64,000 nt of DNA from Squalus acanthias (taxonomy: Eukaryota), in NCBI GenBank assembly GCA_030390025.1, contig CM059432.1:91576001-91640000 (forward strand), in the 5' to 3' direction. Positions 1,050 through 64,000 of this stretch are shown here, one piece after another. The number at the start of each line of letters is the position of its first letter. The first letter of the stretch is position 1. The notes under the pieces were generated by a model that worked only from the letters and a program-made list of their open reading frames with translations, was not told where the DNA came from and searched no databases. A program made the position numbers and the translations under genes.

Positions 1050-1792
1050 GGGGTGATTTTGTGAATGGGGGTGCGTTGGAGGCGGGACTGCTGCTTGTCG
1101 GGTTTAAGTCCCGCCTCCATCGACTTGTGGCCAATCCACGCTATTTTCCCTTGATTGACCTTGTTAAGCCCGCCCAGCGGGCTTAGCAGGCCAATTAAGG
1201 GGAAGCCGGTTACAAAGAACGCCAGCGTATGACGTTTCATCTGTCAAAACCTATTTTGTGAGCAGAAAGCAGATGGCTGTTGCATCGGAGAATGCAGCAG
1301 CCATTCTGTCATCTCTGCCACTGAGATGCCAGAGCCTCTGCATCCCCAACGATTGAAGCCTTCAGGAAGAAACAAAGGTAAGGAAACTTTTTCTATCACT
1401 TTTCACTCACCTCACATACTTACCTCTCCACACTTGCACCCATCACTCACCTCCACAGCGCACTTTTGGACCCCTCCGACCCCCGCAGACCCACTGCTCG
1501 CTTCGCTGACCCTGTCGGGGTTTCCCGACGTCGGGAAGCTTGCACCTCTAATGGAAAAATGGGGATAATCCTTTTAACTGCCTGTTAACTACCTGTTAAC
1601 AGGCAGTTAAGTGGCTGTAATCCCCTTCCCGCCTCCAGGAGACGGGACCTGGCGCGGGTCGGGTACCCGCCTCCTGGGAAGATGGCACAGAGGCGGGTTG
1701 GGGGCGGGATGGGCACCCGCCCCCAGATTCTGCCATTTTCCCGGCAGTTCCGCCTCCAAACCCGCCTCCCCAGGGCTGGCAAAATCGTCCCC
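1050..1792. mobile_element. Non-autonomous Harbinger-type MITE
   Basis: Imperfect TIRs GGGGTGATTTTG / CAAAATCGTCCCC, flanked by ATA on both sides (3-bp TSD). Confidence 0.7.
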
Positions 1793-1846
1793 ATAGTGAT
1801 CTGGATTTTCCTCCCTTTGGCAGGTTTGTGGCAACTCTAATAATGT

Positions 1847-2222
1847 GGGTACGGTAGCATAGTGGTTATGTTACTGGACTAGTAATCCAGGGATACGAGT
1901 TCAAATCCCATCACGGTATCTGTGGAATTAAAAAAATTCAGTTAATTAAATAAATAGTATGAAACCACCGGATTGTTGTAAAAACCCATCTGGTTCACTA
2001 ATATCCTTTAGGAAAGGAAATCTGCTGCCCTTACCTGCTCTGGCCTGTGGTTGACTCTTAACTGCCCTATGAAATGGCCTAGCAAGCCATTCAGTTGTAT
2101 CATCTCACAGACTACAGCGGTTCAAGCAGGTGGCTCACCACCACCTTCTCAAGGGCAATTAGGGATGGGCAATAAATGCTGGCCTTGCCAGCAATGCTCA
2201 TGTCCAATGAAAAAAGAAAAAA
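1847..2222 (+). mobile_element. tRNA-derived SINE with a LINE-derived 3' tail
   Basis: A-box-like TAGCATAGTGG and B-box-like GAGTTCAAATCC. The 3' ~110 nt (CAGCGGTTCAAG...CTCAAGGGCAATTAGGGATGGGCAATAAATGCTGGCC) match the LINE ends at 38.6, 54.0 and 59.8 kb. A-rich tail. Confidence 0.8.
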
Positions 2223-2359
2223 ATACCTGCTGTTAACTTGCTGCAGGTTCCTTGTTCGACAGCAGGATAATTTGCAGGTCAGAAAACAGCCCTTCATTGG
2301 ATTAATGCGGGAGGGAGGGAAATAGTGCTGTGGGATCTTTTATGTCCACCTAAGAGGGC

Positions 2360-2733
2360 ATTGGAGAGGGTGCAGAGAAGATTTACAAGGATGATACCAG
2401 AAATGTGAGGTTAGACCTATCAGGAAAGGATGAACAGGCTGGCTCTCTTTTCTCTTGAAAAAAGAAGGCTGAGGGGTGACCTAATAGAGGTCTTTAAAAT
2501 TATGAAAGGTTTTGATAGAGTGGACACAGAGACAGTGGTTCCACTTGTGGGGAAGAGCAAAACGAGAGGCCATCAATATAAGATAGTCACCAAGAAAACA
2601 ATTGGGAATTCAGAAAAAACTTCTTTATCCATAGAGCAAAGACAGGAGGAGGTTTGAGTGGATCATAAACTCTGCCATGGACTGGTTGGGCCGAATGGCC
2701 TGTTTCTATGCTGTATATTCTATGTAATTCTAT
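2360..2733 (+). mobile_element. CR1 LINE 3' fragment
   Basis: LFSLEKRRLRGDLIEVFKIMKG motif, GGGCCGAATGGCCT 3' hairpin and TTCTATG tail repeats. Confidence 0.85.
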
Positions 2734-2769
2734 GAAATACAGTTCTGGTGCAGTCTTTGAAATCAGCAG

Positions 2770-3000
2770 CTTCAAGGTGTCAGCAGCTGGCAGAGCCCCA
2801 GGTTTTCAAATACATCATTGGAGGTGCTGCTGCCAGGAGGGAACATCTGACGGGCACTGAGGACAGGAGGCCTCATTGGAAAGTTGAGCAGGCTGTTAAG
2901 AGGGAGGTTGGAGAGGCAGTCAGTGAAACCTCCATCAGCTCAAGAACTGATACACCATGCAGAAAGAGATTCAACAACCTCAATAGGATGGCCAAGGTAA
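2770..3000 (+). pseudogene. Degenerate Harbinger Myb/SANT-like DNA-binding gene exon
   Basis: SRTDTPCRKRFNNLNRMAK followed by AAG|GTAAGC donor. Homologous to 33271-33510. Confidence 0.55.
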
Positions 3001-23124: not shown

Positions 23125-25790
23125 GTCAGTATGTTTCCTGCCCAACAAGGAAGGAGGCATTGCTGGATCTGGTCCTGGGGAATGAAGTGGGTCAAATGGA
23201 GAATGTCACAGTTGGAGAGCATTTCGGGAACAGTGAACATAGTTTCATAAGGTTTAGATTAGTTATGGAGAAGGACAAGGAGCAATCTAGAGTAAAAATA
23301 CTTAACTGGGGGAGGGCTAATTTCAGCGAATTGAGGAGGAGTCTGGCCTGGGTTAATTGTAGTCAAAGACTGGCAGGCAAAAATGTAATGGAGCAATGGG
23401 CGGCCTTTAAAGAGGAGATGGTTCGGATACAATCTAGGTACATTCCTACAAGGGGGAGGGCGACCAAAGCCAGAGCTCCCTGGTTGATGAAGGAGTTGGA
23501 GAGTAGGATGAAGCATAAAAGGGGGGCGCCCATTTAAAACGGAGATGAGGAGGAATTTCTTCTCTCAGAGGGTTGTGAATCTTTGGAATTCTCTACCCCA
23601 GAGAGCTGTGGAGGCAAGGGTTATGGGGAACGGGCAGGAAAGTGGAGTTGAGGCCAAGATCAGATCAGCCATGATCTTATTGAATGGCAGAGCAGGCCTG
23701 AGGGGCCGAATGGCCTACTCCTGCTCCTATTTCTTATGTTCTTATGACAGATGTCAGCTTGATAATACAAGGGAGAATCAGGCTGAATGTAAAAAGTAAA
23801 GAGAAGTGAAAAAGGAAATAAGAGGGACAAAGAGACAGTACGAGAATAGATTGGCGGCTAACATAAAGGGGAATCCAAAGGTCTTCTATAGGCATATTAA
23901 CAATAAAAAGACTTGCCAGAGGAGTAGTGGGGCCAATTAGGGACCAAAATGGAGAACTACTGGTGAAGGCATGGCTGAGGTACTAAATGAGTGTTTACCA
24001 AGGAAGAGGACTTTGCCAAAGCTATGGTAAACGAGGAGGTTGCTGGGATACTGAATGAGATAAAAATAGATAAAGAGGACGTACTGGAAAGGCTGGTGGT
24101 AATTAAAGTGGATAAGTCACCCGGTCTGGATATGATGCATCCTAGGTTACTAAGGCAAGTAAGGGTAGAAATTGTGGAGGTGCCGGCCACAATCCTAATC
24201 CTCCTTAGATACAGGGGTGGTGCCAAAGGACTGGAGGATTGCAAATGTTACACCCTTGTTCAAATAAGGGGAGAAGGATAAACCTGGCAATTAGAGGCCA
24301 GTCAGTTTAACATCGGTGATAGGGAAGCTTTTAGAAACAATAATCTGTGAGAAAATTAACAGCCACTTGGACAAGCATGGACTAATAAAGGAAAACCAAC
24401 ACAGATTTGTTAAGGGCAAATCATGCTTGATTAACTTGATTGAGTTTTTTGATGAGGTAACAGAGAGGGTGGATGAGGGCAGTGCAGTTGATGTTGTGTA
24501 TATGAACTTTCAAATAGCATTTGGTAGAGTACCACATACTAGGCTTGTTAGCAAAATTGAAGCCCATGAGATAAAAGGGGCAGTAGCAGCATGGATACAA
24601 AATTGGCTAAGGGCTAGAAACAGAGAAGTTGTGGTGAATGGCTGTTTTTCAGACTGGAGGGACATATACAGTGGCATTCCCCAAGTTTCAGTACTAGGAC
24701 CACTACTGTTTTTGCTATACATTAATGACTTGGACTTGGGGGTACAGGGCACAAGTTTCTCTTTTCTATCCCTTAGCCAATTTTGTATCCATGCTGCTAC
24801 TGCCCCTTTTATCTCATGGGCTTCAATTTTGCTAACAAGCCTAGTACGTGGTACTTTACCAAAAAAGTTCAAAATTTGCAGATGACATGAAACTTGGAAG
24901 TGTAATAAACAGTGAGGAATGTAGTAATAGACTTCAAGAAGTCATAGACAAGCTGGTGGAATCGGCGGACACATGGCAGATGAAATTCAGTGCAGAGAAG
25001 TGTGAGGTGATACAATTTGGTAGGAAGAATGAGGAGAGACAATACACAGCTAAATGGTACAATTTTAAAGGGGGTGCAAGTACGGAGAGACCTGGGGATG
25101 CTTGTGCACAAATTATTGAAGGTGGCAGGACAGGTTAACAAAGCAGTTAATAAAGCATATGGGATCCTGGACCTCATAAATAGAGGCATAGAGTAGAAAA
25201 GCCAGAAAGTTATGCTAAACCTATATCAAACACTAGTTCAGCCCCAGCTGGAGTATTGTGTCCAATTCTGGGCACCACACTTTAGGAAGGACATGAAGGC
25301 TTTGGAGAGGCTGCAGAGGAGATTTACTAGAATGGTTCCAGGGATGAGTGCATACAGTTGCGTGGATAGACTAGAGAAGCTGGGGTTGTTCTCCTTGGAG
25401 CAGAGAAGGCTAAGAGGAGATTTGATAGAGGTGTTTAAAATCATGAAGGATTTAGATAGAGTAAATAGAGAAACTGTTTCCAATGGTTGAAGAGTCGATA
25501 ACGAGAGGGCACAGATTTAAGGAGATTGGCAAAAGAACCAGAGGCGACATGAAGAAAAACCTTTTTTTGCAACGAGTGGTTAGGATTTGGAATGCACTGC
25601 CTGATAGGGTGGTGGAAACAGATTCAATAGTAACCTTCAAAAGGGAATTGGATAAATACTTGAAGGAGAAACAAATTGCAAGGATATGGGGAAAGAGCGG
25701 GGGAATGGGATTAACTGGATTGCTCTTCGAAAGAGCCGGACTCGATAGGCCGAATGGCCTCCTTCTGTGCTGTACTATTCTATGATTCTA
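23125..25790 (+). mobile_element. CR1 LINE ORF2 (long, degenerate), with a nested CR1 3' fragment (~23529-23742) and an inverted duplication (~24751-24862)
   Basis: ALLDLVL, KSPGLDMMHPRLL, KSCLINLIEFF, KFADDMKL, 3' hairpin and TTCTATGATTCTA tail. Confidence 0.92.
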
Positions 25791-34224: not shown

Positions 34225-36000
34225 GGACGGTGCTGAATAGGATATATTTTGGATAATCTGAAGTAAACTGAAGGTGGAGGATGGGAGATTGGCTGGGAGA
34301 GCATTGGAATAGTCGAGGCTGGAGATGACAAAGGCATGGAGGAGGATTTCAGTGGCAGATGAACTGAGATGGGGCAGAGGCGGGTGATATTATGTAGGTG
34401 AATGTAGGTGGCCTTTATGATGGAGTGGGCGTGATGTTAGGAGCTCAGTTGGGGTTGAATAGGACACTGAGGTTACAAACAGTCTAGTTCAGCCTTAGAC
34501 AGTGAGTGAGGAAGGAGGTTGAATTGTTGACAAGTGTATGGAATTTGTGGCAGGGGCCAAGATCATAGCTTTGATCTTTCCAACATATAACAGGAGGTGA
34601 TTGCAGCTCATCCAAGATTGGATGTCGGACCAGCATTCTGACAACACAGAGGCAGTGGAGGGGTTGAGAGAGGTCATGGAGAGGTAGAGCTGGATATTAT
34701 CAACATACATGTGGAAACTGACCATGTATTTAAAGATGATGGGGGTAAAATATCCTAGACTCAACCATCTTCAGCTGCTTCATCAATGACTTTCCCTCCA
34801 ACATAAGGTCAGAAATGGGGATGCTCGCTGATGACTGCACAGTGTTCAGCGCCATTCACAACTCCTCAGATAATGAAGCAGTCCATGCCCGCATGCAACA
34901 CGACCTGGACAACTTTCAGGCTTGGGCTGATAAGTGGCAGCTAACATTCGCGCTACACAAGTGCCAGGCAATGACTATTTCTAACAAGCAAGAGTCTAAC
35001 CATCGCCCCTTGACATTCAATGGCATTACCATCGCCGAATCCCCCACCATCAACATCCTGGGGGTCACCATTGACCAGAAACTTAACTGGACCAGCCACA
35101 TAAATAATGTGGCAACAAGAGCAGGTCAGAGGCTAGGTATTCTGCAGTGTGTGTCTCACCTCCTGACTCCCCAAAGCCTTTCCACCATCTACAAGGCACA
35201 AGTAAGAAGTGTGATGGAATACTCTCCACTTGCCTGGATGAGTGCAGCTCCATCAACACTCAAGAAGCTCAACACCATCCAAGACAAAGCAGCACACTTG
35301 ATTGGCAGCCCATCCACCACCTTAAACATTCACTCCCTCCACCACCGGCGTACTATGGCTGCAGTGTGTACCATCTACAAGATGCACAGCAGCAACTCGC
35401 CAAAGCTTCTTCGGCAGCACCTCCCAAACCCGCGACCTCTTCCACCTAGAAGGACAAGGGCAGCAGGCGCATGGGAACACCACCACCTCCATGTTCCTCT
35501 CCAAGTCACGGACCATGGTTTGCTGGGCAAGGGGAAAGGGGGGAAGCAGGAGAGACAGCTGAACAGATGCTATAAATCATAGCAAGAAGAGGTTCATGAG
35601 CTCCTTGCACTTGTTGTTGGAGGTGAGGGTGGAGAGAGCTGAGGAAAGAGGATTAATGATCTGGTTGGTAGTGAAGAAAACAAGCCAGTTATCTTTGCTT
35701 CAGGATGATCCTGGAGTAGAGGGCAGTTTTGGCAAAGGAGAGCGAGGCCCTTTAGCACTGGATGTGGTGCAGCCAGATTTAGTGACAGATGGCTATGCCA
35801 GATATATTCAAATTTGTGGCCCTTGGATGAGGGAGCAAAGACGGGGGCCAAACCAGGGGGAATCATCAGGATGGGAAAGAGTAAAGGTGTTGCTGACAAC
35901 AAGGGCATCGTAGAATGTGTGGGTTTGTTCTATCAGTGCACCGTTCCAGAATTGGCCCTTCAATCCATGGAGGAGCAGTGTGCTAGAAATGGGGCAAGAA
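34225..36000 (-). mobile_element. Old L2 LINE fragments, interrupted by the LINE at 34763-35510
   Basis: SFHMYVDNIQLYLS...WMSCNHLLL on the minus strand; further L2-like sequence at 35515-36000. Confidence 0.65.
34763..35510 (+). mobile_element. Young CR1/L2-group LINE (Zenon/Daphne-like), RT C-terminal fragment
   Basis: ADDCTVF, LSTIYKAQVRSVMEYSPLAW, IHSLHHRR; near-identical to other copies in the window. Confidence 0.85.
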
Positions 36001-37607: not shown

Positions 37608-38670
37608 GTCTTCAACAAGCAAGCGTCTAACCACCTCCCCTTGACATTCAAAGGCATTACCATCACCGAATCCCGCCCCCCCCCGCCCGCCATCAACATC
37701 CTGGGGGTCACCATTGACCAGAAACTTAACTGGACCAGCCACATAAATACTGTGGCTACAAGAGCAGGTCAGAGGCTGGGTATTCATAAGAACATAAGAA
37801 ATAGGAGCAGGAATAGGCCACTTGACCCCTCGAGCCTGCTCCGCCATTCAATAAGATCATGGCTGATCTTGGGCTCAAGGCCACTTCCCCGCCGTCTCCC
37901 CATAACCCTTCACTCTCTTATCTTGCAAAAATTTGTCTATCTCCACCTTAAATATATTTAATGACCCAGCCTCCACAGCTCTCTGGGGCAGAGAATTCCA
38001 CAGATTTACGACCCTCTGAGAGAAGAAATTCCTCCTCATCTCAGTTCCAAGAGGGCGACCCTTTACTCTAAAACTGTGGCCCCGGAGAGTGTCTCACCTC
38101 CTGACTCCCCAAAGCCTTTCCACCATCTACAAGGCACAAGTAAGGAGTGTGATGGAATACTCTCCACTTGCCTGGATGAGTGCAGCTCCAACAACACTCA
38201 AGAAGCTCCACACCATCCAGGACAAAGCAGCCCGCTTGATTGGCACCCCATCCACCACCTTAAACATTCACTCCCTCCACCACCGGCGTACCATGGCTGC
38301 AGTGTGTACCATCTACAAGATGCACTGCAGCAACTCGCCAAGACTTCTTCGGCAGCACCTTCCAAACCCGCGACCTCTTCCACCTAGAAGGACAAGGGCA
38401 GCAGGCGCATGGGAACGCCACCACCTCCAATTTCCCCTCCAAGTCACACACCATCCTGACTGAGAAGTATATCACCGATCCTTCATCGTCGCTGGGTCAA
38501 AATCCTGGAACTCCCTACCTAACAGCACTGTGGGAGTACCTTCAACACATGGACTACAGCGGTTCAAGAAGGCGGCTCACCACCACCTTCTCAAGGGCAA
38601 TTAGGGATGGGCAATAAATGCTGGCCTTGCCAGTGACGTCCACATCCCATAAACAAATTTAAAAAAAAAA
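37608..38670 (+). mobile_element. Same young LINE family, 3' end complete, with a nested minus-strand CR1 3' fragment (~37786-38083)
   Basis: Host ORF is interrupted at RLGI|. Insert begins with CR1 tail ATAAGAACATAAGAA. Host ends with AATAAATGCTGGCC and poly(A). Confidence 0.88.
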
Positions 38671-39319
38671 TCCAATTCCAACAATTGTTACGTTAATCTA
38701 AAATGAATATTATGTTTTGAAAATAACACTCGAATTGAGATTACATGGAATTATTGTTTACAATGACATATCTTCTGATGTAAGACTTAAAAAATGTTTC
38801 AGCAATATAAAAATTGCAGCTCAGAAACAATTTTGTATATCTACCAGCTACGTTAGAAATGAAATTTGCAAAGTTTGAAAAATTTGCCTTTAAAGGCCAC
38901 TTTATAAACTATCAAACTGTCAAATTTTGTTTTATAACACTCCTGTGAAGCGTCTTGGGATGTTTTACTATGTTAAAGGCACTATATAAATACAAGTTGT
39001 TGTTGTTGTTATCAAAATACATATAGAAGGCCAGTAATCCATCTTTGCTAATCCATCCAGAAAGTCCCTACAGTTCGCCCCACTCCCATAACAGCAACAA
39101 ATTGTTTCTTAAATCAATCCAGGGTTCTTGACTCCATCAACCTATCCAAAAATATGTTGTCCATTCTGTGTGACAAACAGCTTTCTGACATCAGTCCTAA
39201 ATTTGCCTTCTACTAGTTTGAGTCTTGTAGTTCTGTTCCAGGTCAAATCAAAGATGGAGTCCAAACTAGTTTGAAACTTTTAACGCAAACTCATTGGGGT
39301 TCATTTTAACCATCATTTG

Positions 39320-40579: not shown

Positions 40580-42293
40580 TCCTAACCGTCTCCTTTTCAC
40601 TATGGACGTCCAATCCCTCCACACCTCCATCCCCCACCAGGATGGCCTGAGGGTGCTCCGCTTCTTCCTTGAACGGAGACCCAACCAGACCCCATCCACC
40701 ACCACCCTCCTCCGCCAAGTTGAACTTGTTCTCACATTGAACAACTTCTCCTTCGACTCCACTCACTTCTTCCAAATAAAAGGTGTTGCTATGGGAACCC
40801 GTATGGGTCCTAGCTATGCCTGCCTTTTCGTGGGATATGTAGAACATTCTTTGTTCCAGTTCTACTCAGGTCCCCTCCCTCACCTCTTTTTCCCTGTACA
40901 TTGATGACTGTATCGGTGCCGTTTCCTGCTCTCGCCCTGAACTGGAAAATTTCATTTACTTTGCTTCCAATTTCCACCCTTCCCTTGCCTTCACATGGTC
41001 CATCTCCGACTCTTCTCTTCCCTTCCTCGACTTCTCTGTCTCCATTTCTGGGGATAGGCTATCGAACAATATCCACTATAAGCCCACTGACTCCCACAGC
41101 TACCTTGACTATACTTCCTCCCATCCCGCTTCCTGTAAGGACTTTATTCCATTCTCCCAGTTTCTCCGCCTCTGTCGCATCTGTTCCAACGATGCCACCT
41201 TCGATACCAGTGCTTCTAATATGTCTTCCTTTTTCTTTAACCGAGGATTCCCCTCCACTGTGGTCGTTAGGGCCCTTGTTCCATTTCCCGCACTTCTGCC
41301 CTCACCCCTTCCCCTCCCTCCCAGAACCACAATAGGGTTCCCCTTGTCCTCACCTTCCAGCTCACCAGCCTTCACATTCAACAGATCATTATCCGCCATT
41401 TTCGCCACCTCCAGCGTGATCCCACCACCAAACACATCTTCCCCTCCCCTTTCAGCATTCCAAAGGGACCGTTCCTTACACAACACCCTCGTCCACTCTT
41501 CTATCACCCCCAACACTCCGTCCCCTTCCCACAGCACCTTCCCGTGCAAGCACAGGAGATGCAACACCTGCTCTTTTACCTCCTCCCTTCCCACCGTCCA
41601 GGACCCCAAACACTCCTTCCAGGTGAAACAGTGATTTACTTGTACTTCTTTCAATTTAGTATACTGTATTCGCTGCTCACGATGCGGTCTCCTCTACATT
41701 GGGGAGACCAAGTGCAGATTGGGTGACCGCTTTGCGGAACACCTCCGTTCAATACGCAAGCGTGACCCCGAGCTTCCGGTCGCCTGTCATTTTAATTCTT
41801 CGGACCACTCCCACTCTGATCCCTCTGTCCTTGGCCTCCTACACTGTTCCAATGAAGCTCAACATAAGCTCGAGGAACAGCTATTTGGCACTTTACAGCC
41901 TTCCGGACTCAATATTGAATTCAACAATTTCAGACCATAACCTCTGCCCCCATTTTTCTGCACAGCAGCTGTTGGTGATGATTCTGTTATTCCTATTTAC
42001 ACCTCCTCTAGACCCATCTTTTGTTTCTTTACTTTTCCCATTACCACCCCCTTTTGCCTTGCACCACCTTTTGGCATTTAATCTCTCCTGCCTTCCACCC
42101 TAGCACAGACCTTCCCTTTTGTTCTTTCCTTCCCGCCCCCCTTTCCCTGCCCCTACACTTGCTTAAAACCTGTTACATCTCCAACCTTTTCCAGATCTGA
42201 CGAAAGGTCATCGACCTGAAACGTTAACTCTGTTTCTCTCTCCACAGATGCTGCCTGACCTGCTGAGTATTTCCAGCATCTTCTGTTTTTATT
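40580..42293 (+). mobile_element. Second Penelope-like element (different family), degenerate RT plus GIY-YIG and 3' pLTR
   Basis: TMDVQSLHTSI, KGVAMGTRMGPSYA, YIDD, VYCIRCSRCGLLYIGET, GLNIEF; pyrimidine-rich 3' region followed by a hammerhead. Confidence 0.9.
42193..42229 (+). ncRNA. Minimal type I hammerhead ribozyme motif
   Basis: AGAU-CUGACGA-A-AGGUC auc GACCU-GAAA-CGUU-AACU: perfect stem II, palindromic ACGU stem III, one mismatch in stem I. Confidence 0.7.
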
Positions 42294-43679
42294 ATAGCAT
42301 AATTTCCTTGCTTTTGTACTCTATTTCTCTATTAATAAACCCAAGGATCCCATATTCTCTTTTAACAGTCTTCTTAATTTGTCCTGCCACCTTCAAAGAT
42401 TTGTGTACATACACCCCCAGGTCTCTCTGTTCCTGCACCCCCTTTAAAATTGTACCATTTAGTTCATATTGTCTCTCCTCATTCTTCCTGCCAAAATGTA
42501 TCACTTCACACTTTTCTGTGTTAAATCTCATCTGTCATGTGTGTGCCTATTTCACCAGTCTGTCTAGGTCCTCCTGAAGTCTGTTACTATCCTCCTCATT
42601 ATTTACTACATTTCTGAGTTTTGTATCATCTGAAAACTTTAAAATTATGCCCTGTATACCCAAGTCCAGGTCATTAATATATATCAAAAAGAACAGTGGG
42701 GAACACCACTGTATAATTTCCTTCAGTCTGAAAAACAACAGTTCACCACTAATCTCTGCTTTCCATCCCTTAGTCAATTTTGTATCCATGCTACCACTAT
42801 CCCTTAAATCCCATGGACTTTAATTTTGCTAACAATTCTATTGTGTGGTACTTTGTCAAAAGCCTTTTGAAAGTCCATATACACAACATTAACCGCACCA
42901 CCCTCATCAGCCTGCTCCGTTACTTCATCAAAGAACTTGATCAAGTTAGTCAAACACAATTTGCCTTTAACAAATCCATGTTGACTTTCATTTATTAGCC
43001 CATACTTTTCCAAATGCCAATTAATTTGTCCCAGATTATTGACTCTAAAAGTTTCCCCACAACCGACATCAGGCTGACTGGCCAGTAGTTGTCGAGTTTA
43101 ACTCTTTCTCTTTTTTAAACAGGGGTGAAGCATTTGCAATCCTCCAGTCCTCTGGCACCACCCCTATATCTAAGGAGGATTGGAAGATTGTGGCCAGAGC
43201 CACTGTAATTTCCACCCTTGCTTCCCTCCGTAACCTAGGATGCATCCCATCCGGACCGGTGAATTTTCTACTTTGAAGACTGCCAATCTTTTAAGTACAT
43301 CTTCTTTGTCTATTTTTATCTTATCCAATATCGCTACTGCTTCCTACTATGCTGCTACATTGACAGCATTCTCTTCTCTGGTGAAGACAGATGCAAATTA
43401 CTCATTTAGTACCTCAGCCATGCCCTCTGCCTCTACAAGAAAATCGCTTCTTTGGTCTCTAATTGGCCACACCCTTCCTTTGACTACCCTTTTACTATTT
43501 ATGTGTTTAGAAAAGATTTTTGAGTTCCCTTTTATGTTAGCCACTAATCTATTCTCATACTCTCTCATTGCCCCTCTTAGTCCCTTTTTTAGATCTTCTC
43601 TGTATTTTCTATATTCAGCTTGGTTCTCTCTTCTTCTTCTTAGGCAGTCCCTTGGAACCGAGGATAACTTGCTTCCACA

Positions 43680-45235
43680 TTAAAAATGAGTTTGCAGGTG
43701 ACTGATGAGTCCAATGCGGGACCTACAGTCTCTGTCACAGGTGGGGCAGACGGTGGTTGAAGGGGCAGGTGGGTGGGGTGCTTGGGTTGACGTGCGCTCC
43801 TTGCGCTTGGCTTCCGCTTGCTCCCGGCGAAGAGACTCGAGGTGTTCGCGCCTTCCCGGATGCTTCTCCTCCACTTTGTGTGGTCTTGGGCCAGGGATTC
43901 CCAGGTGTCGGTGGGGTTCCCAGGTGTCGGTGGGGATGTTACACTTTTTCAAGGAGGCTTTGAGTGTGTCCTTGAAGCGTTTCCTCTGCCCACCTGGGGC
44001 TCTCTTGCCGTGTCGGAGCTCCGAGTAGAGCGCTTGTTTTGGGAGTCTCGTATCGGGCATGCGGACAATGTGACCCGTCCATCGGAGCTGATCAAGCGTG
44101 GTCAAAGCTTCGATGCTGGGGATGTTGGCCTGAGCAAAAACACTGACGTTGGTGCGCCTATCCTGCCAATGGATTTGCAGGATCTTGCGGAGGCAGCGTT
44201 GATGGTACCTCTCCAGTGCTTTGAGGTGCCTGCTGTACATGGTCCATGTCTCTGAGGCATACAGCAGGGCGGGTATCACTGCTGCTCTGTAGACCATGAG
44301 CTTAGTGCCGGGTTTGAGGTCCTGGTCTTCAAACACTCTCTTCCTCAGGTGACCGAAGGCTGCACTGGCACACTGAAGGTGGTGTTGGACTTCGTCGTCG
44401 ACGTCTGCCCTTGTTGACAGTAGGCTCCCGAGGTATGGAAAGTGGTCCACGTTGTCCAAGGCCTTGTCGTGGATTTTGATAATCGGGGGGCAGTACTCTG
44501 TGGTGGGGGCAGGTTGGTAGAGGACCTTTGTCTTACGGATGTTTAGTGTAAGGCCCATGCTCTCGTACGCTTCGGTGAAGGTGTTGATGATGGTTTGGAG
44601 TTCGACCTCCGAGTGAGCGCAGACGCAAGCGTCGTCTGCATACTGTAATTCGACGACAGAGGATGGGACGACCTTGGATCTGGACTGGAGGCGATGGAGG
44701 TTGAACAGTTTCCCATTTGTTCTGTAAATTAGCTCCACTCCAGCGGGGAGCTTACTGAGGGTGAGATGGAGCATTGCAGCAAGGAAGATCGAGAAGAGCG
44801 TTGGTGCGATGACACAGCCTTGCTTGACCCCGGTTCGTACGTGAATTGGGTCTGTGGTGGAACCGTTGGTCAGGATCATGGCTTGCATGTCGTCGTGAAG
44901 CTGGCGGAGGATGGTGACAAACTTTTGAGGGCAGCCGAATTTGCGGAGGATACTCCATAATCCCTCACGGTTGACAGTGTCGAAGGCCTTTGTGAGATCA
45001 AAGAAGGCCATGTACAGCGGTTGGTGCTGTTCCCTGCATTTCTCTTGTAATTGACGTGCAGTGAAGATCATGTCCATTGTGCCCCTTAGTGGGCGGAATC
45101 CGCATTGTGACTCTGGGAGGAGCTCTTCGGCCACTGGGAGAAGGTGATTGAGGAGGATTCTTGTGATGACTTTCCCTGTGGCAGACAGCAGGGAAACTCC
45201 TCTGTAATTACCGCAATCGGACTTGTCACCTTTCT
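43680..45235 (-). CDS. RTE reverse transcriptase and C-terminal CCHH zinc finger (fragment)
   Basis: CGNYRGVSLL, PESQCGFR, FFDLTKAFDTV, GVKQGC, LQYADD, CPTCDRDCRSRIGLISHLQTH. Confidence 0.85.
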
Positions 45236-46467
45236 CAAACAATCCCTGTCCCGAGTCCCAATGGGCGACAAGCTGATCCTCCTTGGAGACTTTAACGCCA
45301 GAGTTGGAAAGGACACTGACCTCTGGGGAGGTGTGATCAGCAGAGAGGGGGTAGGGAAAGCCAACTCCAACGGTACCCTCCTCCTGTCAAAATGCTTAGA
45401 ACATGGCCTTGTCATAACCAACACCTTATTCCGTCAGAGAGACAAGTACAAGGCTTCATGGCAGCACCCTCGCTCCAAGCACTGGCACCTGCTGGACTAC
45501 ATCATCGTCCGAGCGAGGGACCGCAAGGACGTCCGCATCACCCGCGCTATGACAGGAGCTGACGACTGCTGGACAGACCACCGCCTAATCCGTTCTGTCA
45601 TCTCCATCAATGTAACCCCAAAACAGCGGCGGCAACAGAAACAATGCCGCAGGAAAATTAACACTGGAGCACTCAAAGACCCCGCTAAGAAAGCCCTATT
45701 CAGCCTGCGCCTCACAAACAACCTGACGACTCCCAGTGATGCAGAGACACAGAGTGCCCACAGCGCCTGGTCTGCACTCAAGGCCTCCATAATCAGCACC
45801 TGTGAAGAGACGCTCGGTCACTCGACCAGGAAACACCAAGACTGGTTCGACGAGAATGACCAGGAGATCCAGGAGCTAATAAGCCGCAAGCGCAAGGCAT
45901 TCCTGATCTGGAAACAGCAACAGAACTCGAGAGCAAGAAAGCAGCTCTACAGATGCCTGAAGGCTGAGGTCCAACAAAAAACTCGCGACCTAAAGAACAG
46001 ATGGTGGGTGGAGAAAGCGCAGGAGATCCAGCAGCTAGCCGACAACCACGACGTGCGTGGATTCTTTAGCGCAGTCAAGACCATCTGCGGCCCAAGCACC
46101 CAAGGCCCTACCCCACTGCGGGCCAAGAACGGAGTACTCATCAAGGACAGAGAGGCAGTCAGTGCCCGCTGGAAGGAGCACTTCGAAGATCTCCTTAACC
46201 ACGACTCTGTCTTCGACGCGAGTGTCCTCAACTCCATCCCGCAGCATGCTACCCGCCACCATCTCAGCACAACCCCAGCCCGGCATGAGGTTGAAAAGGC
46301 CATCCGACAACTGAAGAACAACAAGGCCTCAGGAGCAGATGGAATCCCCGCCGAGGCACTAAAGCATGGCGGAAAAGCACTACTGGCGCGAATTCATGAA
46401 CTAATTTCTCTTATATGAAAGGAGGAGAGCATGCCAGGGGATCTCAGAGACGCCGTAATTGTGACCA
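45234..46467 (+). pseudogene. RTE APE endonuclease C-terminal half and linker (inverted arm)
   Basis: LLGDFNARVG, HWHLLDYII, WTDHRL, KASGADGIPAE; one TGA in place of a Trp codon at 46416. Confidence 0.85.
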
Positions 46468-49042
46468 TTGGTTCTCTACCAAATTATTGACCTTACAATT
46501 GTCATAAGCCTCCTTTTTCTGTCTCACTTTAACTTCCTTATCTTTAGTCATCCAGGAAGCTCTAGCTTTAGATGCCCTTGCTCTCCCCCTCACGAGAGTG
46601 TGTCTACTTTATACAGAACCATCTCCTCTTTGAAGGCCTCCCATTGTTCAATTACTGTTTTGCCTACCAACTTTTGATTCCAATCCACCTGGGCCAGATC
46701 CCTTTTCAACTCACTGAAGTTAGCCCTCCTTCAGTTAAGGATTTTTACACTTGATTGTACCTTGTACTTCTCCATAAATATTCTCTATCCTGTGCTTGTA
46801 CCAGTGCTCATGTTGGTTACAGAGATGTCTGAGCAGTGTGCATTGCTGGTATTTGTGCTGGTGGAACCTTCGGGTGTTCTGGTGCAAATGATCCCTGCAG
46901 CCTAACAGTCTAACTATTTGAAGGGAGAAAGCTAAGCATTAACAGCTTTCTAATATTTTTGTCACACACAATGTTGAACAGTGCTTGATATTTTCCATGC
47001 TAATATTTTATACTATATTGCTAAATGTATTTTTATATTAGGTTAGATCTTGTGGTAACTTAAGTGGCTCACAAAGGATGATGAAATAGTTAGCATATAT
47101 TGAGACATGCAGCAGGGCATGTACATCTGCTGAAAAGGGAGGAAACATCTTTAGGCAAACCAGACTGCAGAGTGAGATAAGCAAAAGTAAGTGCAGCTGA
47201 TACAGTTTTATGTTTAGCCATAATATAGACTAAAAGTAAGAATGAAAAATTGAATAGATTAGACTGAGTCTTTAATAATGTAAGAATTAACACAATTAAT
47301 AGGAGGTATACTGGTTTAGAGATAATGGGAAAGTACTGAGCAAGAAATGTGCAGCTGAACGATGTAAGGACTAGAATGTAATAACCTTGAGGATCAATAA
47401 GAGTGAGGGCCTTGGAACTCACTGGCAAGATTAGAATTATGTCAGGAGTTGATTACTAATAGGTATAAATATGGCAAACTCCATTTTACTTTGGCACTTC
47501 GTGAGTATGGCTCATTCCATCTTGATTGCCTGACCCAGCTGAGGTGTCCCGGATTGTGAGTATGACTCCTGTCCTTATGATTTGTTACGAGTAGGTTGCA
47601 TGGCTTTAAGATCTAGCTACATACATAGTACTTTCCTATAGTTTATGTGGACTTTGGACTTAATAAAGTTATTCATGACGCTATTATGTGCTGAGATTTC
47701 TTGAACATACCGGGTGAATGCACGCACCCAGGCCAACACACAATGTCAAAGATAATTGCACAAATATTTAGTGTGCATTTGCTTTTAACAATTTGTTACT
47801 TTTTCTCTTTCCACCTGTTTTTCTCCCCTTTCTGGTCATACATCCTGCAATCAAGAAGGCACACAATGCTTTGAGTTATCCTCCCTTCCTGCTTGGAACC
47901 TCCCCACAGCAGCATAGTCAAAATAGAATGAGCATAAAACATATCATTCATTCTGTGGATTTGTGTTCCAATACAATGTGGTAACAGACGAACTTAGAGT
48001 CATATGTTAAGCATGCCTATGCGTGCCAAAGATTGTGTAACAGACTTTATAAATTGTTATATTAAAAGATATTGGCCCGGATATTGCTGTAATAATAGTG
48101 GTGAGGCTATCAGCACTACAGGGTAAATCTGACATTAACTTCTGGCATCCAGACATGTGCAGTTAAAAGCAAAAATCCAGGAGTTACTGTCAGAGACACC
48201 CTACTCCTTTAGATGCTGTTGCAGTCCTTGCCAATAGACTCAGCACTGAAATCACTGTAATGGCGTGAACTTGCTGTACTTGCCCATTAGTTCCGCACTA
48301 AAAATGGCTGAAAAAGTTAGAGCTGGTACATTTAGGAGTGAGTGAGTTTTTAATGGTGTAATGAGGGATAATTACTGCTGAACAACCTCTCTGAACCTGA
48401 AAAAATGTTTTTACAAATCTGGAGTCTCATTCCCTCACAAGAAAATTAATGTTGCAGATTTTTTTTAAAGTATTTTCAATTTTTTTTTACTTTCACTGTC
48501 TCTTTTATCTCTCTCCCTTAATCCCATCTGTATTTCCCAGTCTTTATTTTGCTTCCTGTACATGATTTAAATGTAATTTAGATTTCCTGCTTTTTACTTC
48601 TTGGTTTGGACTCTGTGGGGAGGTGGGGGTTATTTTTACTACAAAAAGCGAGTGGGTTTGGGAGCGGGTGGGTGATTAAAAGTGCTGAAATTGGCAGTGC
48701 ATCAGGAAGCCGGCTCCAACCCACCGACATCCGCATTTAACTGGAGCGCGTTCAACTGCGTGTGAGAAATGCCCTCGGGAGAGCTGGGTTGCTAATTTAA
48801 ATATGTTAAGAGGTAATTAACAGCTTTTTGAACAGGGGTTTTCAACTTTAACTGTGGGTGCACGGGTTTCCCGGGCTTCCTGGACCTCGTCAGTGAAAGC
48901 AAGGTGAGAGCACTACGGTAATTGAGGGGGGCTGAACAAGTGACAGGCAAAAAATTGCCTAAGTACTGAGACCTCATACCTGCTTCCTTGCCTAAGTGAA
49001 AGGCTTTTGCTCACAGCACTTGTTCTGAGAGTTTGCTTTTAG

Positions 49043-49140: not shown

Positions 49141-49329
49141 GTGCGTCTGATCTCCACTTTCCATCTGTCATATATCAGATCAGCATGGGTGCTGCTTGTG
49201 CTGTTTCACCTTGGACCTCAGATGAGGACCAAGATGAGCAGCAGCAGCAACACCACCAGCAGCACCAACAGGAGCAGCAGTAGCCTTCTCCTCACAGACC
49301 TGTGAGGGGTTGAGCACAGAGGTGCAGCT

Positions 49330-50259
49330 CGCAGGAGGCGATACCCACAACACACAGGGTATACAGGCAGAGGATCAGCTTCCTGGACATGACTGAACAG
49401 CAGTGCCTCAGGAGGCTCAGGGTATCACGTCAGGTTGTGGCAGACATTTGTAGCTTGCTGGAACAAGACCTGCTGCCAAGCGGACCTGGTGGACACGCGT
49501 TACCAGTGGCTGTCAAAGTGACCACTGCCTTCAACTTCTTCACCTCAAGCTCCTTCCAGGGATCTGCAGGAGATATTTGTAGGATTTCGCAGTCGGCCGC
49601 CCACAAATGCATCACACAGGTGACCAATGCCATGTTTGCCAGGGCAGGCAATTGTGTACACTTTACCACCGATGAAGCCAGTCAGAATGAGCGGGCGCTC
49701 GGGTTTGCGGCTCTGGCTGGCTTCCCACAGGTGCAGGGCATCATCGACTGCACACATATTGCAATTAAGGCACCCCCAGATCACCCAGGATCCTTATGGT
49801 TCGTGAACCGTAAGGGCTTCGACTCCATCAATGTGTGGCTCGTCTGTAATCACAAAAAAATAATTATGCATGTGTGTGCCAGATTCCCAGGGAGCTGCCA
49901 TGATACATTCGTCCTGCGCCAGTCCACCCTCCCTCAGCACTTCGCACCTCTGAACAGACTTACCGGCTGACTGCTTGGAGTCAAGGGCTATTCACATAAA
50001 ATGTGGCTGATGAGACCCCTAATGAGAAACCCAAGCAATGAGGCCCAAGAGCGCTACAATCAAAGCCAGATGACGACCAGATGTGTAATAGAGCAAGCAA
50101 TCGGGATGCTGAAGATACACTTTAGGTGCCTCAACAGATCTGGAGACGCCCTTCAATACGCACCAGCCAGGGTCTCCAGAATGATCGTGGTGTGCTGCAT
50201 TCTGCAGGAGGAGCAAGGCGCAGAGTGCAGTGCCTCTTCAGAGGATGAACAGGAGGAGG
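49330..50259 (+). pseudogene. Harbinger (HARBI1-like) transposase, disrupted
   Basis: [59 protein letters not shown]; stop at 49968 and LTR insertion in the acidic tail. Confidence 0.88.
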
Positions 50260-53365: not shown

Positions 53366-56241
53366 GGCCTAGAAATTCACTACCTTAGTGCCAAGCGTTA
53401 ACACCGGATTTCTTCAAAAATTGGCGTCCGCCTCGTTTCCGCCTGCTGACACGGCAGCTGCCATTTTGGAGAGGTCAAGAGCGCTACTAGCATTCATCTC
53501 TCCAATGCAAATGTGCAGATCGTGATGTCAATCGGCGTGTAATGCCTGATTTGATGCACGACTGCAATTTTGGATGTCACCGCACACCATATCGGCCTCT
53601 CCAAACCACGCACGGAAGAACGTGCGTGCAGCAGTACTTCAGAGACGCTGTCAGCGCTTCTTAAAAGGACACACACATCTTTCAAGTAAGTTTTGATTTC
53701 AGCTGTTGGAGTCGATTTTTTAGATTTTATTGAAGTAGTGGCTTGATGCAATATATTTAAAAAGTTGTTAAAGAGTGAAGGGAGTGTTGCTGGATGCGTG
53801 CAAGGCCTTGAATGTTAAAGGAAGGCCTCTGAGAAGACCAATTACGCACAGTCCTGGAGGGCACACGGAGATGAAGCAGAGGCATCATCTTGGCCACAAT
53901 GCTGAAATAAAAGCCACCACAAAGCAAATTTTCCAATCCAACATTATCCATATATTTTTCTTTTATTCGTTTTTTTGGGATGTGGGCGTCACTGGCAACG
54001 CCAGCATTTATTGCCGCTCCCTAATTGCCCTTGAGAAGGTGGTGGTGAGCCGCCTTCTTGAACCACTGCAGTCCATGTGGTGAAGGTACTCCCATAGTGC
54101 TGTTAGGGAGGGAGTTCCAGGATTTTGACCCAGCGACAATGAAGGATCGGCGATATACTTCTAAGTCAGGATGGTGCGTGACTTGGAGGTGAACTTGCAG
54201 GTGGCGGTGTTCCCATGCCATGTCCTTCTAGGTGGAAGAGGTCGCGGGTTTGGGAGGTGCTGCCGAAGAAGCCTTGCTGCAGTGCATCTTGTAGATGGTA
54301 CACACTGCAGCCATGGTACGCCGGTGGTGGAGGGAGTGAATGTTTAAGGTGGTGGATGGGGTGCCAATCAAGCTTTGTATTGGATGGTGTCGAGCTTCTC
54401 GAGGGTTGTTGGAGCTGCACTCATCCAGGCAAGTGGAGAGTATTCCATCACACTCCTTACTTGTGCCTTGTAGATGGTGGAAAGGCTTTGGGGAGTCAGG
54501 AGGTGAGACACTCACCGCAGAATACCTAGCCTCTGACCTGCTCTTGTTTCCACAGTATTTATGTGGCTGGTCCAGTTAAGTTTCTGGTCAATGGTGACCC
54601 CCAGGATGTTGATGGTGGGGGATTCGGTGATGGTAATGCCATTGAATGTCAAGGGGAGGTGGTTAGACTCTCGCTTGTTGGAGATAGTCATTGCCTGCCA
54701 CTTATGTGGCGCAAATGTTACCTACCACTTATCAGCCCAAGCCTGAACGTCGTCCAGGTCTAGTTGCATGCGGGCATGGACTGCTTCATTATCTGAGGAG
54801 TTGCAAATGGCGCTGAACACTGTGCAGTCATCAGTGAACATCCCCATTTCTGACTTTATGTTGGAGGGAAGGTCATTGATGAAGCAGCTGAAGATGGTTG
54901 GGCCTAGGACACTGCCCTGAGGAACTCCTGCAGCGATGTCCTGGGGCTGTGATGATTGACCTTCAACCACCACAACCATCTTCCTTTGTGCTCGGTATGA
55001 CTCCAGCTAGTGCAGTGTTTTCCCCTCAATCCCCATTGACTTCAGTTTTACTAGGGCTCCTTGATGCCACACTCGGTCAAATGCTGCCTTGATGTCAAGG
55101 GCAGTCACTCTCACCTCACCTCTGGAATTCAGCTCCTTTGTCCATGTTTGGACCAAGGCTGTAATGAGGTCAGGAGCCGAGTAGTCTTGGCGGAACCCAA
55201 GCTGGGCATCAGTGAGCAGGTTAGTGGTGAGTAAGTGCCGCTTGATAGCACTTTGCTGCTGATTGAGAGTAGACTGATGGGGCGGTAATTGGCTGGGTTG
55301 GATTTGTGCAGCTTGTAAATCAGAAGAGATTGTAGGATGAGGGCGACGTGGGATGTGAGAAAGAGGTTAATGTATGAGGATACTAGCATCTTGTATTCTT
55401 TCAGCTCCGCCGCCGACCAAGGGCTCAGCCATGCCCCTGCCAAGAATGGCCAGCACCGTGTCCTCCAAGGATGTGAGGTGAAGCTAGGAATGTGAGGTGT
55501 GCCTCATGTTTGGTACAGATTGTTGGTAGGTGGGGGTGGGTTGGTCATACATTGAGCATTGTGTGAGGCTAGTGGTACAGTTAGTAGGAGACAGCTTTTG
55601 AAGATGCATTCACTGACCTTGACCACTGGTCTGAGGTCAAGAAACATCTTTGGGCACTGGAGCCAGGTCCTGGGTGGGGCGGCACTGCTGGCAATCTGGT
55701 CCCATATCCTTCTTTCTGGAGGGACTGCTCGCCCCTGTGGGTAGAGGAACTCTCTTCCACTTTTGACCCACTGCACAATGCTTGAGTGCTGTGTGCGAGA
55801 CCAAGGGTGCCCTTTCCCTGGCCTGTTGAGCCATTTGTGTTAGTGCTGAAGCACTTTTAACATGTTTTACATATGAAAGGCAGTTCAGCTTTAAGAGCTG
55901 AAGACTACCTAGTTTGGAATGATTTTTAATGGGCTTTTTTCAGAAGGCAGTTGAGCTCTAAGGGCTAGAGACTGCCTATTTTTGAATGATTTTTAATTTT
56001 TTTTCAGAAGGCAGTTCCCTTTTAAAGGCTTGATAATGCTTTCTAAAATGATAGCCTTAAGAAAAGGCAGCCTTGCTCCAGGGACACTACAGGGATGTGA
56101 TATTGGGCCTCCTGCTGAGTGCACAGCCTGAAGCAGTGCCTTCATCGCTGGGCTGTGCGCTGAAATCATTCAAATCAGCAGGCAGCACCAAAATAACGTA
56201 CTGCCTTCGATTTTTTTACAGGCCCGAGCAAATCTCACCCC
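53366..56241 (-). mobile_element. Non-autonomous Harbinger, related to 6092-7316 and 59974-62225, in inverted orientation
   Basis: Terminus GGCCTAGAAATTC. Myb exon WLQCPKMFLDLRPVVK|gtcagt on -. 53.6-53.84 kb matches the reverse complement of 61.73-61.93 kb. Right end is approximate. Confidence 0.7.
53953..55305 (-). mobile_element. Young CR1/L2-group LINE, RT to 3' end
   Basis: SNPANYRPISLLS, AGVPQGSVLGP, FTDDCTVF, shared 3' tail. Confidence 0.88.
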
Positions 56242-58690: not shown

Positions 58691-58845
58691 AGAGTAAAAG
58701 GGGTTATGGTAGTGTAGTGCTAATGGATTAGCAATCCAGAGGTCAGAGATTTAAGTCCCACTATGGCTAAATTGTGAAACTGAATTCAGTAAAACTGACA
58801 ACTTGTGGACTGGCAGAATAAATGGTGGATTGTTTTAAAAATCAT

Positions 58846-59857
58846 CACAGCCCCAGGACATCACTGCAGGAGTTCCTCAGGGCTGTATCCTAGGCCCAAC
58901 CATCTTCAGCTGCTTCATCAATGACCTTCCCTCCATCATAAGGTCAAAAATGGGAATGTTCACTGATGACTGCACAGTGTTCAGTGCTATTTGAACTCCT
59001 CAGATGATGAAGCAGTCCATGCCCGCATGCAACAAGACCTGGACGACATTCAAGCTTGGGCTGATAAGTGGCAAGTAACATTTGCGTCACACAAGTGTCG
59101 GGCAATGACTATCTCCAACAAGCGAGAGTCTAACCACCGCCCTTTGACATTCAACGGCATTACCATCGCCGAATCCCCCACCATCAACATCCTGGGGGGT
59201 CACCATTGACCAGAAACTTAACTGGACCAGCCACATAAATAATGTGGCAACAAGAGCAGGTTAGAGGCTAGGTATTCTGCGGCGAGTGTCTCACCTCCTG
59301 ACTCCCCAAAGCCTTTCCACCATCTACAAGGCACAAGTCAGGAGTGTGATGGAATACTCTCCACTTGCCTGGATGAGTGCAGCTCCAACAACACTCAAGA
59401 AGCTCGACCCCATCCAGGACAAAGCAACCTGCTTGATTGGCACCCCATCCACCACTTTAAACATTCACACCCTCCACCACCGGCATACCGTGGCTGCAGT
59501 GTGTACCATCTACAAGATGCACTGCAGCAACTCGCCAAGGCTCCTTCGGCAGCACCTCTCAAACCCGTGACCTCTACCATCTGGAAGGACAAGGGCAGCA
59601 GGCGCATGGGAACACCACCACCTCCATGTTCCCCTCCAAGTTATACACCATCCTGACTTGGAAGTATATCTTCATCGTCGCTGGGTCAAAATCCTGGAAC
59701 TCCCTCCCTAATACACTGTGGGAGTACCTTCACCACACGGACTGCAGCAGTTCAAGAAGTCGGCTCACCACCACCTTCTCAAGGGCAATTAGGGATGAGC
59801 AATAAATGCTGGCCTTGCCAGCAATGCCCAGATCCTATGAACGTATAAAAAAAAAAG
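58846..59857 (+). mobile_element. Young CR1/L2-group LINE inserted into an older tRNA-SINE (head ~58700-58845, body ~59860-59945)
   Basis: AGVPQGCILGP through the 3' tail and poly(A); flanks resemble consecutive parts of the 1847 SINE. Confidence 0.85.
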
Positions 59858-63522: not shown

Positions 63523-64000
63523 AATCCCCCACCATCAACATCCTGGGGGTCACCATTGACCAGAAACTTAACTGGACCAGCCACATAAATACGGTGGCAA
63601 CAAGAGCAGATCAAAGGCTGGGTATTCTGCGGCAAGTGTCTCACCTCCTGACTCCCCAAAGCCTTTCCACCATCTACAAGGCACAAGTAAGGAGTGTGAT
63701 GGAATACTCTCCACTTGCCTGGACGAGTGCAGCTGCAACAACACTCAAGAAGCTCGACACCATCCAGGACAAAGCAGCCCGCTTGATTGGCACCCCATCG
63801 ACCACCTTAAACATTCACTCCCTCCACCACCGGCGTACCGTGGCTGCAGTATGTACCATCTAAAGATGCACTGCAACAACTCGCCAAGGCTTCTTCGGCA
63901 GCACCTCCCAAACCCGCAACCTCTACCACCTAGAAGGACAAGGACAGCAGGCGCATGGGAACACCACCACCTCCAAGTTCCCCTCCAAGTCACACACCAT
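63523..64000 (+). mobile_element. Young CR1/L2-group LINE fragment running off the window
   Basis: SPTINILGVTIDQKLNW...IHSLHHRR, near-identical to the 34.8, 38.1 and 59.2 kb copies. Confidence 0.88.

What the first reader, a model, noticed from the sequence alone, without database searches (positions are those of the whole stretch)
43620..46477. RTE LINE with a twin-priming-type 5' inversion
Seen: a single insertion bounded by a 10-bp TSD. The 3' arm with its (GAA)n tail is on - and begins at KGDKSDCGNYRG. The 5' arm is on + and ends at DLRDAVIVT(I). These two peptides are consecutive in RTE ORFs, so only a few nt are lost at the breakpoint. The arms meet head-to-head at ~45234-45235. Known: this geometry is the twin-priming signature, best described for mammalian L1 and, to my knowledge, much less for RTE. 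Near-intact frames and high CpG content suggest a recent event.
Basis: partly seen in the sequence, partly recalled or inferred. Interest (0 to 1): 0.72.

Follow-up and report, generated by a model that had tools for sequence, protein, structure and literature searches.

The report
Front-flipped RTE retrotransposon copy
A young, dead copy of an RTE-type jumping gene landed inside an older one with its front 1.2 kb turned around, the pattern that human L1 elements leave when both cut DNA ends start copying the same RNA; the mechanism is known, but it is little described for this family.

Summary
Confirmed. A 2.84-kb RTE-like LINE sits between two exact copies of a 10-bp target (43620-43629, 46468-46477). 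It interrupts an old CR1-type LINE whose frame reads on across the empty site. The 3' arm (RT, short UTR, (AAG)4 tail) is on minus, 45235-43630. The 5' arm (end of endonuclease plus linker) is on plus, about 45234-46468. Contigs of the same family show the normal order and that only 5 nt are lost at the inversion point. This is twin-priming geometry (confidence about 0.8). Microhomologies are only 1 nt and about 2 nt, which chance can give. No listed contig bridges the inverted joint, and no genome was held to count inverted copies. About 0.4% near-fixed differences (lower bound) means young. A second RTE-like head-to-head inversion lies in an unrelated metagenome contig (L026), its break about 9 codons from this one. 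Eight literature searches found no RTE 5' inversion; one paper calls them nearly L1-specific. The scan noted an RTE case before in another genome (e1-7812926, unchecked). A known mechanism in a less-studied clade; moderate interest.

The parts
43620..43629 (-). Target-site duplication, copy next to the tail (AGAGAACCAA in element sense)
   Evidence: Exact match to 46468-46477; only two copies in the window
43630..43641 (-). 3' microsatellite tail, (AAG)4
   Evidence: Sequence
43642..43679 (-). 3' UTR, 38 nt, after the TAA at 43680-43682
   Evidence: ORF end, sequence
43680..45235 (-). Non-inverted 3' arm: RT domain, C-terminal region, weak C2H2 finger, stop codon
   Evidence: PF00078 E 2.9e-37, zf-C2H2 E 0.034 below cut-off; P0002 residues 546-1062; family contigs leave the window sequence after 45235
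43894..43931 (.). 19-bp tandem duplication in this copy; a 1-bp loss near 43847 returns the frame
   Evidence: loose ends at 43913/43916 and 43848, insertion row at 43847
45234..45235 (.). Head-to-head inversion joint; two bases (CT) probably fit both arms
   Evidence: 3' arm fits the family to 45235; one family contig (X1 record 3) fits 45234-45382 over 149 of its 150 nt; tblastn plus-frame hits begin at 45234 in 4 of 5 relatives tried
45234..46468 (+). Inverted 5' arm: C-terminal part of the AP endonuclease and the linker up to DLRDAVIVTI; 5'-truncated; one stop at 46416-46418
   Evidence: P0002 residues 136-546; PF14529 E 0.0033, below cut-off; family continues after 46468 into the start of the 3' arm
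46468..46477 (-). Target-site duplication, copy next to the inverted arm; its T at 46468 also fits the arm (1-nt microhomology)
42641..43629 (-). Host: old CR1-type LINE, part downstream of the insertion
   Evidence: 74% identical to a second copy at 23769-24758; RT fragment PF00078 E 2.6e-6; the CR1 label is recalled, not from a call
46468..46784 (-). Host CR1-type LINE, part upstream of the insertion
   Evidence: 76% identical to 23256-23487; reading ...NNLVENQ|AEYRKYRED... is continuous once the insertion and one duplication copy are left out

Best explanation
One retrotransposition event of a young, high-copy RTE-like LINE, resolved by twin priming. Inferred steps: (1) the element's endonuclease nicked the target before AGAGAACCAA and the freed 3' end primed cDNA synthesis in the AAG tail; (2) the other strand was nicked 10 nt away before copying was finished; (3) that second 3' end (..CCAA) primed on the same RNA at the IVTI|F codons with one paired base and copied 1,235 nt towards the 5' end; (4) the first cDNA stopped 5 nt short of the second priming site; (5) the two cDNA ends were joined head to head through about 2 shared bases and the gaps filled, giving the 10-bp duplication. 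Shown here: the duplication, the continuous host element, arm order and strand, the 5-nt loss, the 1-nt overlap, young age. Inferred from the L1 model: the order of nicks and the priming. The copy is dead (5'-truncated, split ORF).
For: Exact 10-bp duplication at both ends, unique in the window. Host LINE reads through the empty site, and a paralogue aligns across it with one copy of the target; host-family contigs skip the whole element (joints 43628/43629 to 46483-46490 in 4 of 4 runs). Arms are consecutive in the family with 5 nt lost and in relatives: 93 of 93 long relatives are hit by both arms, in N-to-C order in 91. The inverted arm's 3' end lies exactly on the duplication, as the model demands (PMC2912911, passages). 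The 10-bp length fits the RTE peak of 10-12 bp and the 10-20 bp seen with L1 inversions (PMC4245944, passages). A second RTE-like head-to-head case in another host: L026, 1 of 45 metagenome loci.
Against: Microhomology at the priming site is 1 nt (chance of at least 1 is 0.44) and at the inner joint about 2 nt (chance of at least 2 is 0.16), from the null, so neither is evidence of base-paired priming. None of the 32 contig pieces or 15 joints that one search listed bridges 45234-45236 (447,976 pieces and 781 joints were not shown). PMC4245944 found inversions almost only with human L1 in human cells, and none with L1 in chicken cells. Sequence alone cannot separate twin priming from repair that flips a broken cDNA during the same insertion.
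Confidence: 0.8

Rival explanations
1. Same single insertion, but no second priming: one long first-strand cDNA was broken at the IVTI|F site and the far piece was ligated backwards by end-joining repair.
For: Only 1 nt of primer-RNA match and a small loss at the break, both compatible with end-joining. Host repair at LINE 5' joints is accepted (PMC4245944, passages).
Against: It needs a break plus two joins to give what twin priming gives directly. No filler bases at either joint in this copy.
Confidence: 0.12
2. An ordinary 5'-truncated copy inserted first; its front 1.2 kb was inverted later by a genomic rearrangement.
For: The copy has gathered other changes since insertion (19-bp duplication, small losses), and a neighbouring CR1 copy carries a 108-bp inverted duplication, so local rearrangements happen here.
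Against: One breakpoint would have to fall exactly on the element/duplication border with the duplication left whole (roughly 1 in 1,000-3,000 for a random break in 2.8 kb; my estimate). No inverted repeat pairs the two breakpoints among the 25 longest listed.
Confidence: 0.04
3. Two separate truncated copies in opposite orientation.
For: Near-fixed differences are denser in the 5' arm (7-9 in 1,235 nt) than in the 3' arm (3 in 1,606 nt); Fisher p 0.11 or 0.04 depending on two doubtful sites, from a table with 562 rows hidden.
Against: The plus arm has no tail and no duplication of its own; one duplication encloses both arms; the arms abut within 5 nt in family coordinates.
Confidence: 0.02
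4. Assembly error.
For: Very high-copy repeat family; no listed contig spans the joint.
Against: An error is unlikely to drop 5 nt, end exactly on the duplication and leave the host element continuous. Unique flank matches runs X1 and X3 (0-3 differences per 236-316 nt).
Confidence: 0.02

Closest known systems
5'-inverted (twin-primed) mammalian L1 insertions. Model of Ostertag and Kazazian 2001 (not read; seen as described in passages of PMC2912911, PMC4245944, PMC4476161)
   Same: One insertion between duplications of 10-20 bp; 5' part inverted and joined head to head; inverted part ends on the duplication; short overlaps at the joints.
   Different: Element is RTE-like, not L1: relatives have one EN+RT ORF of about 1,050 aa and the tail is (AAG)n, not poly(A). 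Duplication is at the short end (10 bp). Host is not a mammal. In human and chimpanzee about 30% of recent L1 insertions are inverted (PMC2912911); the rate here is unknown.
Single inverted Nimb-2_DR insert in chicken DT40 cells (PMC4245944, passages)
   Same: A non-L1 LINE with a duplication peak near 12 bp can give a 5' inversion.
   Different: Other clade, cultured cells, one event; here a natural germ-line copy.
RTE-clade LINEs of vertebrates (BovB, RTE-1_MD, Anolis and medaka RTEs; PMC6007223, passages)
   Same: 10-bp duplication starting with A, A-rich microsatellite tail, EN+RT ORF; best relatives (61-66% identity) include lizard and fish ORFs.
   Different: No 5' inversion reported in the passages seen; the T-stretch about 10 nt upstream of the target is not clear here (TTT at -4 to -6).

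Membership tests
Twin-primed 5'-inverted LINE insertion | Both arms enclosed by one target-site duplication at a once-continuous site | tested here: met
   10-bp exact duplication; host LINE continuous
Twin-primed 5'-inverted LINE insertion | 5' part inverted, joined head to head to the 3' part that bears the tail | tested here: met
Twin-primed 5'-inverted LINE insertion | Inverted arm's 3' end lies on the duplication and is consecutive with the start of the 3' arm, give or take a few nt | tested here: met
   5 nt lost; family joint 45235<->46469
Twin-primed 5'-inverted LINE insertion | Microhomology between the duplication's 3' end and the RNA at the internal priming site | tested here: inconclusive
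   1 nt; chance of at least 1 is 0.44
Twin-primed 5'-inverted LINE insertion | Microhomology at the inversion joint | tested here: inconclusive
   About 2 nt, from one contig piece; chance of at least 2 is 0.16
Twin-primed 5'-inverted LINE insertion | Structure exists in real molecules (reads across the joint) | tested here: inconclusive
   Only short contigs; none of those listed bridges 45234-45236
RTE-clade LINE | Non-LTR reverse transcriptase | tested here: met
   PF00078 E 2.9e-37
RTE-clade LINE | AP-type endonuclease N-terminal to RT in the same ORF | tested here: met
   5' arm matches residues 136-546 of P0002 (52.9% identity), which carries PF03372 at 6-229 (E 3.5e-9); the arm alone gives PF14529 E 0.0033, below cut-off
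RTE-clade LINE | Single ORF, short 5' UTR, no ORF1 | tested here: inconclusive
   This copy is cut inside the endonuclease. Relatives are EN+RT ORFs of about 1,050 aa, many on 3.4-4.4-kb contigs, which leaves little room for an ORF1
RTE-clade LINE | Short 3' UTR ending in a microsatellite | tested here: met
   38 nt plus (AAG)4
RTE-clade LINE | Duplication of 7-15 bp (peak 10-12), starting with A in animals | tested here: met
   10 bp, first base A (rule from PMC6007223)
RTE-clade LINE | T-stretch about 10 nt upstream of the target | tested here: inconclusive
   TTT at -4 to -6, single T at -9; a statistical rule, one site
RTE-clade LINE | RT groups with reference RTE elements in a tree | not tested
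   No hit or 47 bore an RTE label; the clade name rests on architecture and recalled motifs (CGNYRGxSLL, LQYADD, HQDWFDEND)

The most novel reading that the evidence does not exclude
Twin priming is a regular outcome of RTE retrotransposition in several animal lineages, so it needs neither L1's ORF1 protein, nor a poly(A) tail, nor a mammalian host, nor more than a base of primer pairing; and the second priming may favour the RNA just at the start of the RT-coding region (this copy breaks at P0002 residues 546-548, L026 at 555-556). I put the first half at about 0.5 and the hotspot at about 0.1; the probability given is for the first half.
Probability: 0.5. Interest if true: 0.62.

Novelty: new variant of a known kind. 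Interest (0 to 1): 0.42.

Why it matters
Papers seen here treat 5' inversion as nearly peculiar to mammalian L1 in its own host (PMC4245944, PMC2912911). A clean natural case in an RTE-like family shows that early second-strand nicking and internal priming are open to a single-ORF LINE with a microsatellite tail. A young family with very many copies would allow the timing of the second nick and the need for microhomology to be measured from genome data alone. RTE-1_MD is used as a gene-writing tool and its truncation rates are undisclosed (PMC13708176, passages), so inverted by-products are worth looking for. One dead copy by itself changes little.

Tried and rejected
No whole genome is held, so inverted and plain copies could not be counted. 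No second copy of the family in the window (blastn; tblastn one search gave only one weak 29% hit at 54878-55231). Exact 23-nt pattern in metagenome contigs: 0 hits. Relatives of P0002 in prokaryote genomes and viral contigs: 0 of 11 and 0 of 1 candidates confirmed. The 45 metagenome loci are distant (DNA 65-77% over short stretches) and cannot map breakpoints at base level. RNA structure as cause of the breakpoint: the first 100 nt of the 3' arm fold at z -1.58 against dinucleotide shuffles and rank 7th of 54 windows; the z -2.47 used mononucleotide shuffles; rejected. Horizontal transfer: six coded organisms hold 43-69% of the words, but X15 also matches the unique flank at about 94-96%, so close kinship explains at least that one; not pursued. 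An excess of G-to-A changes in the 5' arm (5 of 9 sites) is too small to read. Depth falls smoothly in family order across the two arms, but the tool warns that contig depth is no copy number; not used as proof. An empty orthologous site was not among the 15 joints shown. Source names for three relatives could not be looked up, which leaves the clade label without a named reference. Literature: 8 searches listed no paper that describes an RTE 5' inversion; Ichiyanagi and Okada 2008 and Kojima and Okada 2009, the likeliest places, were not read, and no supplements were opened.
Full report
Setting. The window is repeat-rich animal DNA full of LINE and transposon fragments. An earlier AI note on the same genome calls it shark-like (e1-7940754); I did not test that. 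No whole genome is held.

Boundaries. TTGGTTCTCT occurs at 43620-43629 and 46468-46477 and nowhere else on either strand of the window. Its chance at one fixed site is about 2e-6. The insertion interrupts an older LINE on the minus strand (CR1 type by recall). Leaving out the insertion and one copy of the 10-mer gives the continuous reading KKEAYDNCKVNNLVENQ-AEYRKYREDLKKG. A second copy of that host family at 23.2-24.8 kb aligns straight across the site at 73% identity with a single target. Host-family contigs in 4 of 4 runs also join 43628/43629 to 46483-46490. The duplication is therefore real and the 2.84 kb between came in as one piece.

Anatomy. On the minus strand, 45235 to 43630 encodes RT (PF00078, E 2.9e-37), a C-terminal region with a weak C2H2 finger, a stop at 43680-43682, a 38-nt UTR and (AAG)4. 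On the plus strand, 45234 to 46468 encodes the end of the AP endonuclease and the linker. Against P0002 (1,063 aa) the plus arm covers residues 136-546 and the minus arm 546-1062. Of 93 relatives of at least 1,000 aa among the 120 listed, all are hit by both arms, in N-to-C order in 91, and the two arms rank the relatives alike (Spearman 0.76).

Breakpoints. I laid contigs of 4 of the 22 listed runs on 42600-47600. Family contigs leave the window after 46468 with CTTCAAGAAAGGTGAC (X1, X15) and after 45235 with the reverse complement of the 5' arm's end (X1, X3, X10); a joint 45235<->46469 on opposite strands is listed for X3 and X10. The family order is thus 5' arm, CTTCA, 3' arm, and this copy lost those 5 nt. 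The T at 46468 fits both the arm and the duplication (1-nt microhomology). One family contig fits the plus arm from 45234, so 45234-45235 (CT) probably fits both arms. Under a simple null, overlaps of 0, 1 and 2 nt have chances 0.56, 0.28 and 0.11, so these overlaps prove nothing alone. The table showed 15 of 796 joints and 32 of about 448,000 pieces; none of those shown bridges the inverted joint.

Age. Twelve positions in the element are listed where family contigs nearly all differ from this copy; ten are near-fixed in all four runs. That is 0.35-0.42%, a lower bound since 562 rows were hidden, plus a 19-bp duplication, a 1-bp loss and perhaps a 3-bp loss. CpG observed/expected is 0.66-0.68 against 0.18-0.23 in the flanks. 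The unique flank matches X1 and X3 almost exactly and X15 at about 94-96%, so the insertion is probably younger than that split (inference). Against a uniform age, differences are denser in the 5' arm (7-9 against 3; p 0.11 or 0.04); the numbers are small and the table is cut.

Mechanism. The geometry is that of twin priming as described in passages of PMC2912911, PMC4245944 and PMC4476161: first priming at the tail, early second nick, second priming inside the same RNA, head-to-head joining of the two cDNAs. The strongest point is that the inverted arm ends exactly on the duplication and within 5 nt of where the other arm starts. Later inversion, two insertions or misassembly each need a coincidence at that border. 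The one rival that sequence cannot exclude is repair that flips a broken cDNA in the same event. No special RNA fold marks the break.

A second case. Among 45 metagenome loci with relatives of the 5' arm, 40 gave hits to P0002 and one, L026, has hits on both strands. Its plus arm (384-1152; 95% identical to L027 over 384-980) ends at KNRGEKTSC and its minus arm starts at SNHRGISLL, which relatives read as consecutive. The tail end is off the contig, so no duplication can be checked, and a short-read chimera is possible. The break lies about 9 codons from the window's. One pair found after the fact is a lead only. These contigs often collapse repeats, so 1 of 45 is no rate.

What is known. PMC4245944 (passages and section 17) found inversions only with human L1 in human cells, save one Nimb-2_DR insert, and tied them to duplications of 10-20 bp; it gives 10-12 bp as the RTE peak, so RTE inversions are plausible on its own model. 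PMC2912911 (passages) gives about 30% inverted among recent L1 insertions. PMC6007223 (passages) gives the RTE target rules. PMC5389967 and PMC11371274 showed twin priming only in their reference lists; PMC13295347 on Bov-B has no 'inversion', 'inverted' or 'twin' in its main text; PMC13174262, PMC5786205 and PMC13708176 (passages) report no RTE inversion. Eight searches listed none, but the library lacks most subscription papers; Ostertag and Kazazian 2001, Ichiyanagi and Okada 2008 and Kojima and Okada 2009 were not read, and no supplements were opened. Within this scan, e1-7812926 reports a front-flipped RTE in another genome with about one in ten long copies flipped, and e1-7627652 a case in a dinoflagellate; both are unchecked AI notes, not support.

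Verdict. It works like a twin-primed L1 insertion and meets the structural tests, with microhomology and read support inconclusive. It looks like an RTE by architecture, tail and duplication; no tree was made. A known mechanism in a clade where I found no description: new variant of a known kind, interest 0.42.

Noticed in passing
L026:1-1152 (metagenome contig): Second RTE-like element with head-to-head arms: plus arm 384-1152 ends at KNRGEKTSC, minus arm starts near 383 at SNHRGISLL after an 11-nt duplicated piece. Same-family locus L027 (95%) leaves it at 384. Tail and second duplication lie off the contig; host unknown; short-read contig. Break is about 9 codons from the window's.
   Followed up: partly
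L034:1071-1360: RTE-like copy with an internal deletion that resumes near P0002 residue 552-556, again at the start of RT.
   Followed up: partly
window:24757-24863: A CR1-type copy carries a 108-bp inverted duplicate (96%) of its own 24520-24627, after which the RT reading resumes: looks like a templated fold-back insertion.
   Followed up: partly
window:8360-9502 (-): 380-aa open frame with an RT-like end and a GIY-YIG-like motif (YIGETMQTLRQR), resembling a Penelope-like element (recalled; no Pfam hit at 0.001). A more decayed similar piece at 40843-41634 (+).
   Followed up: partly
window:10357-10905 and 49314-49970 (+): Harbinger-type transposase fragments, DDE_Tnp_4 E 3e-16 and 2e-14.
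   Followed up: partly
window:4780-5621: Tandem array of about 32-35-bp units giving long spurious open frames.
   Followed up: no
window:34751-35516, 38083-38671, 53954-54957, 58840-59856, 63523-64000: Five 89-96% identical 3' pieces of another young LINE family (RT hit at 34749-35579); not checked for inversions.
   Followed up: no
window:43843-43931: A 19-bp duplication and a 1-bp loss 47 nt apart cancel each other, so the dead 3' arm stays stop-free; probably chance.
   Followed up: partly
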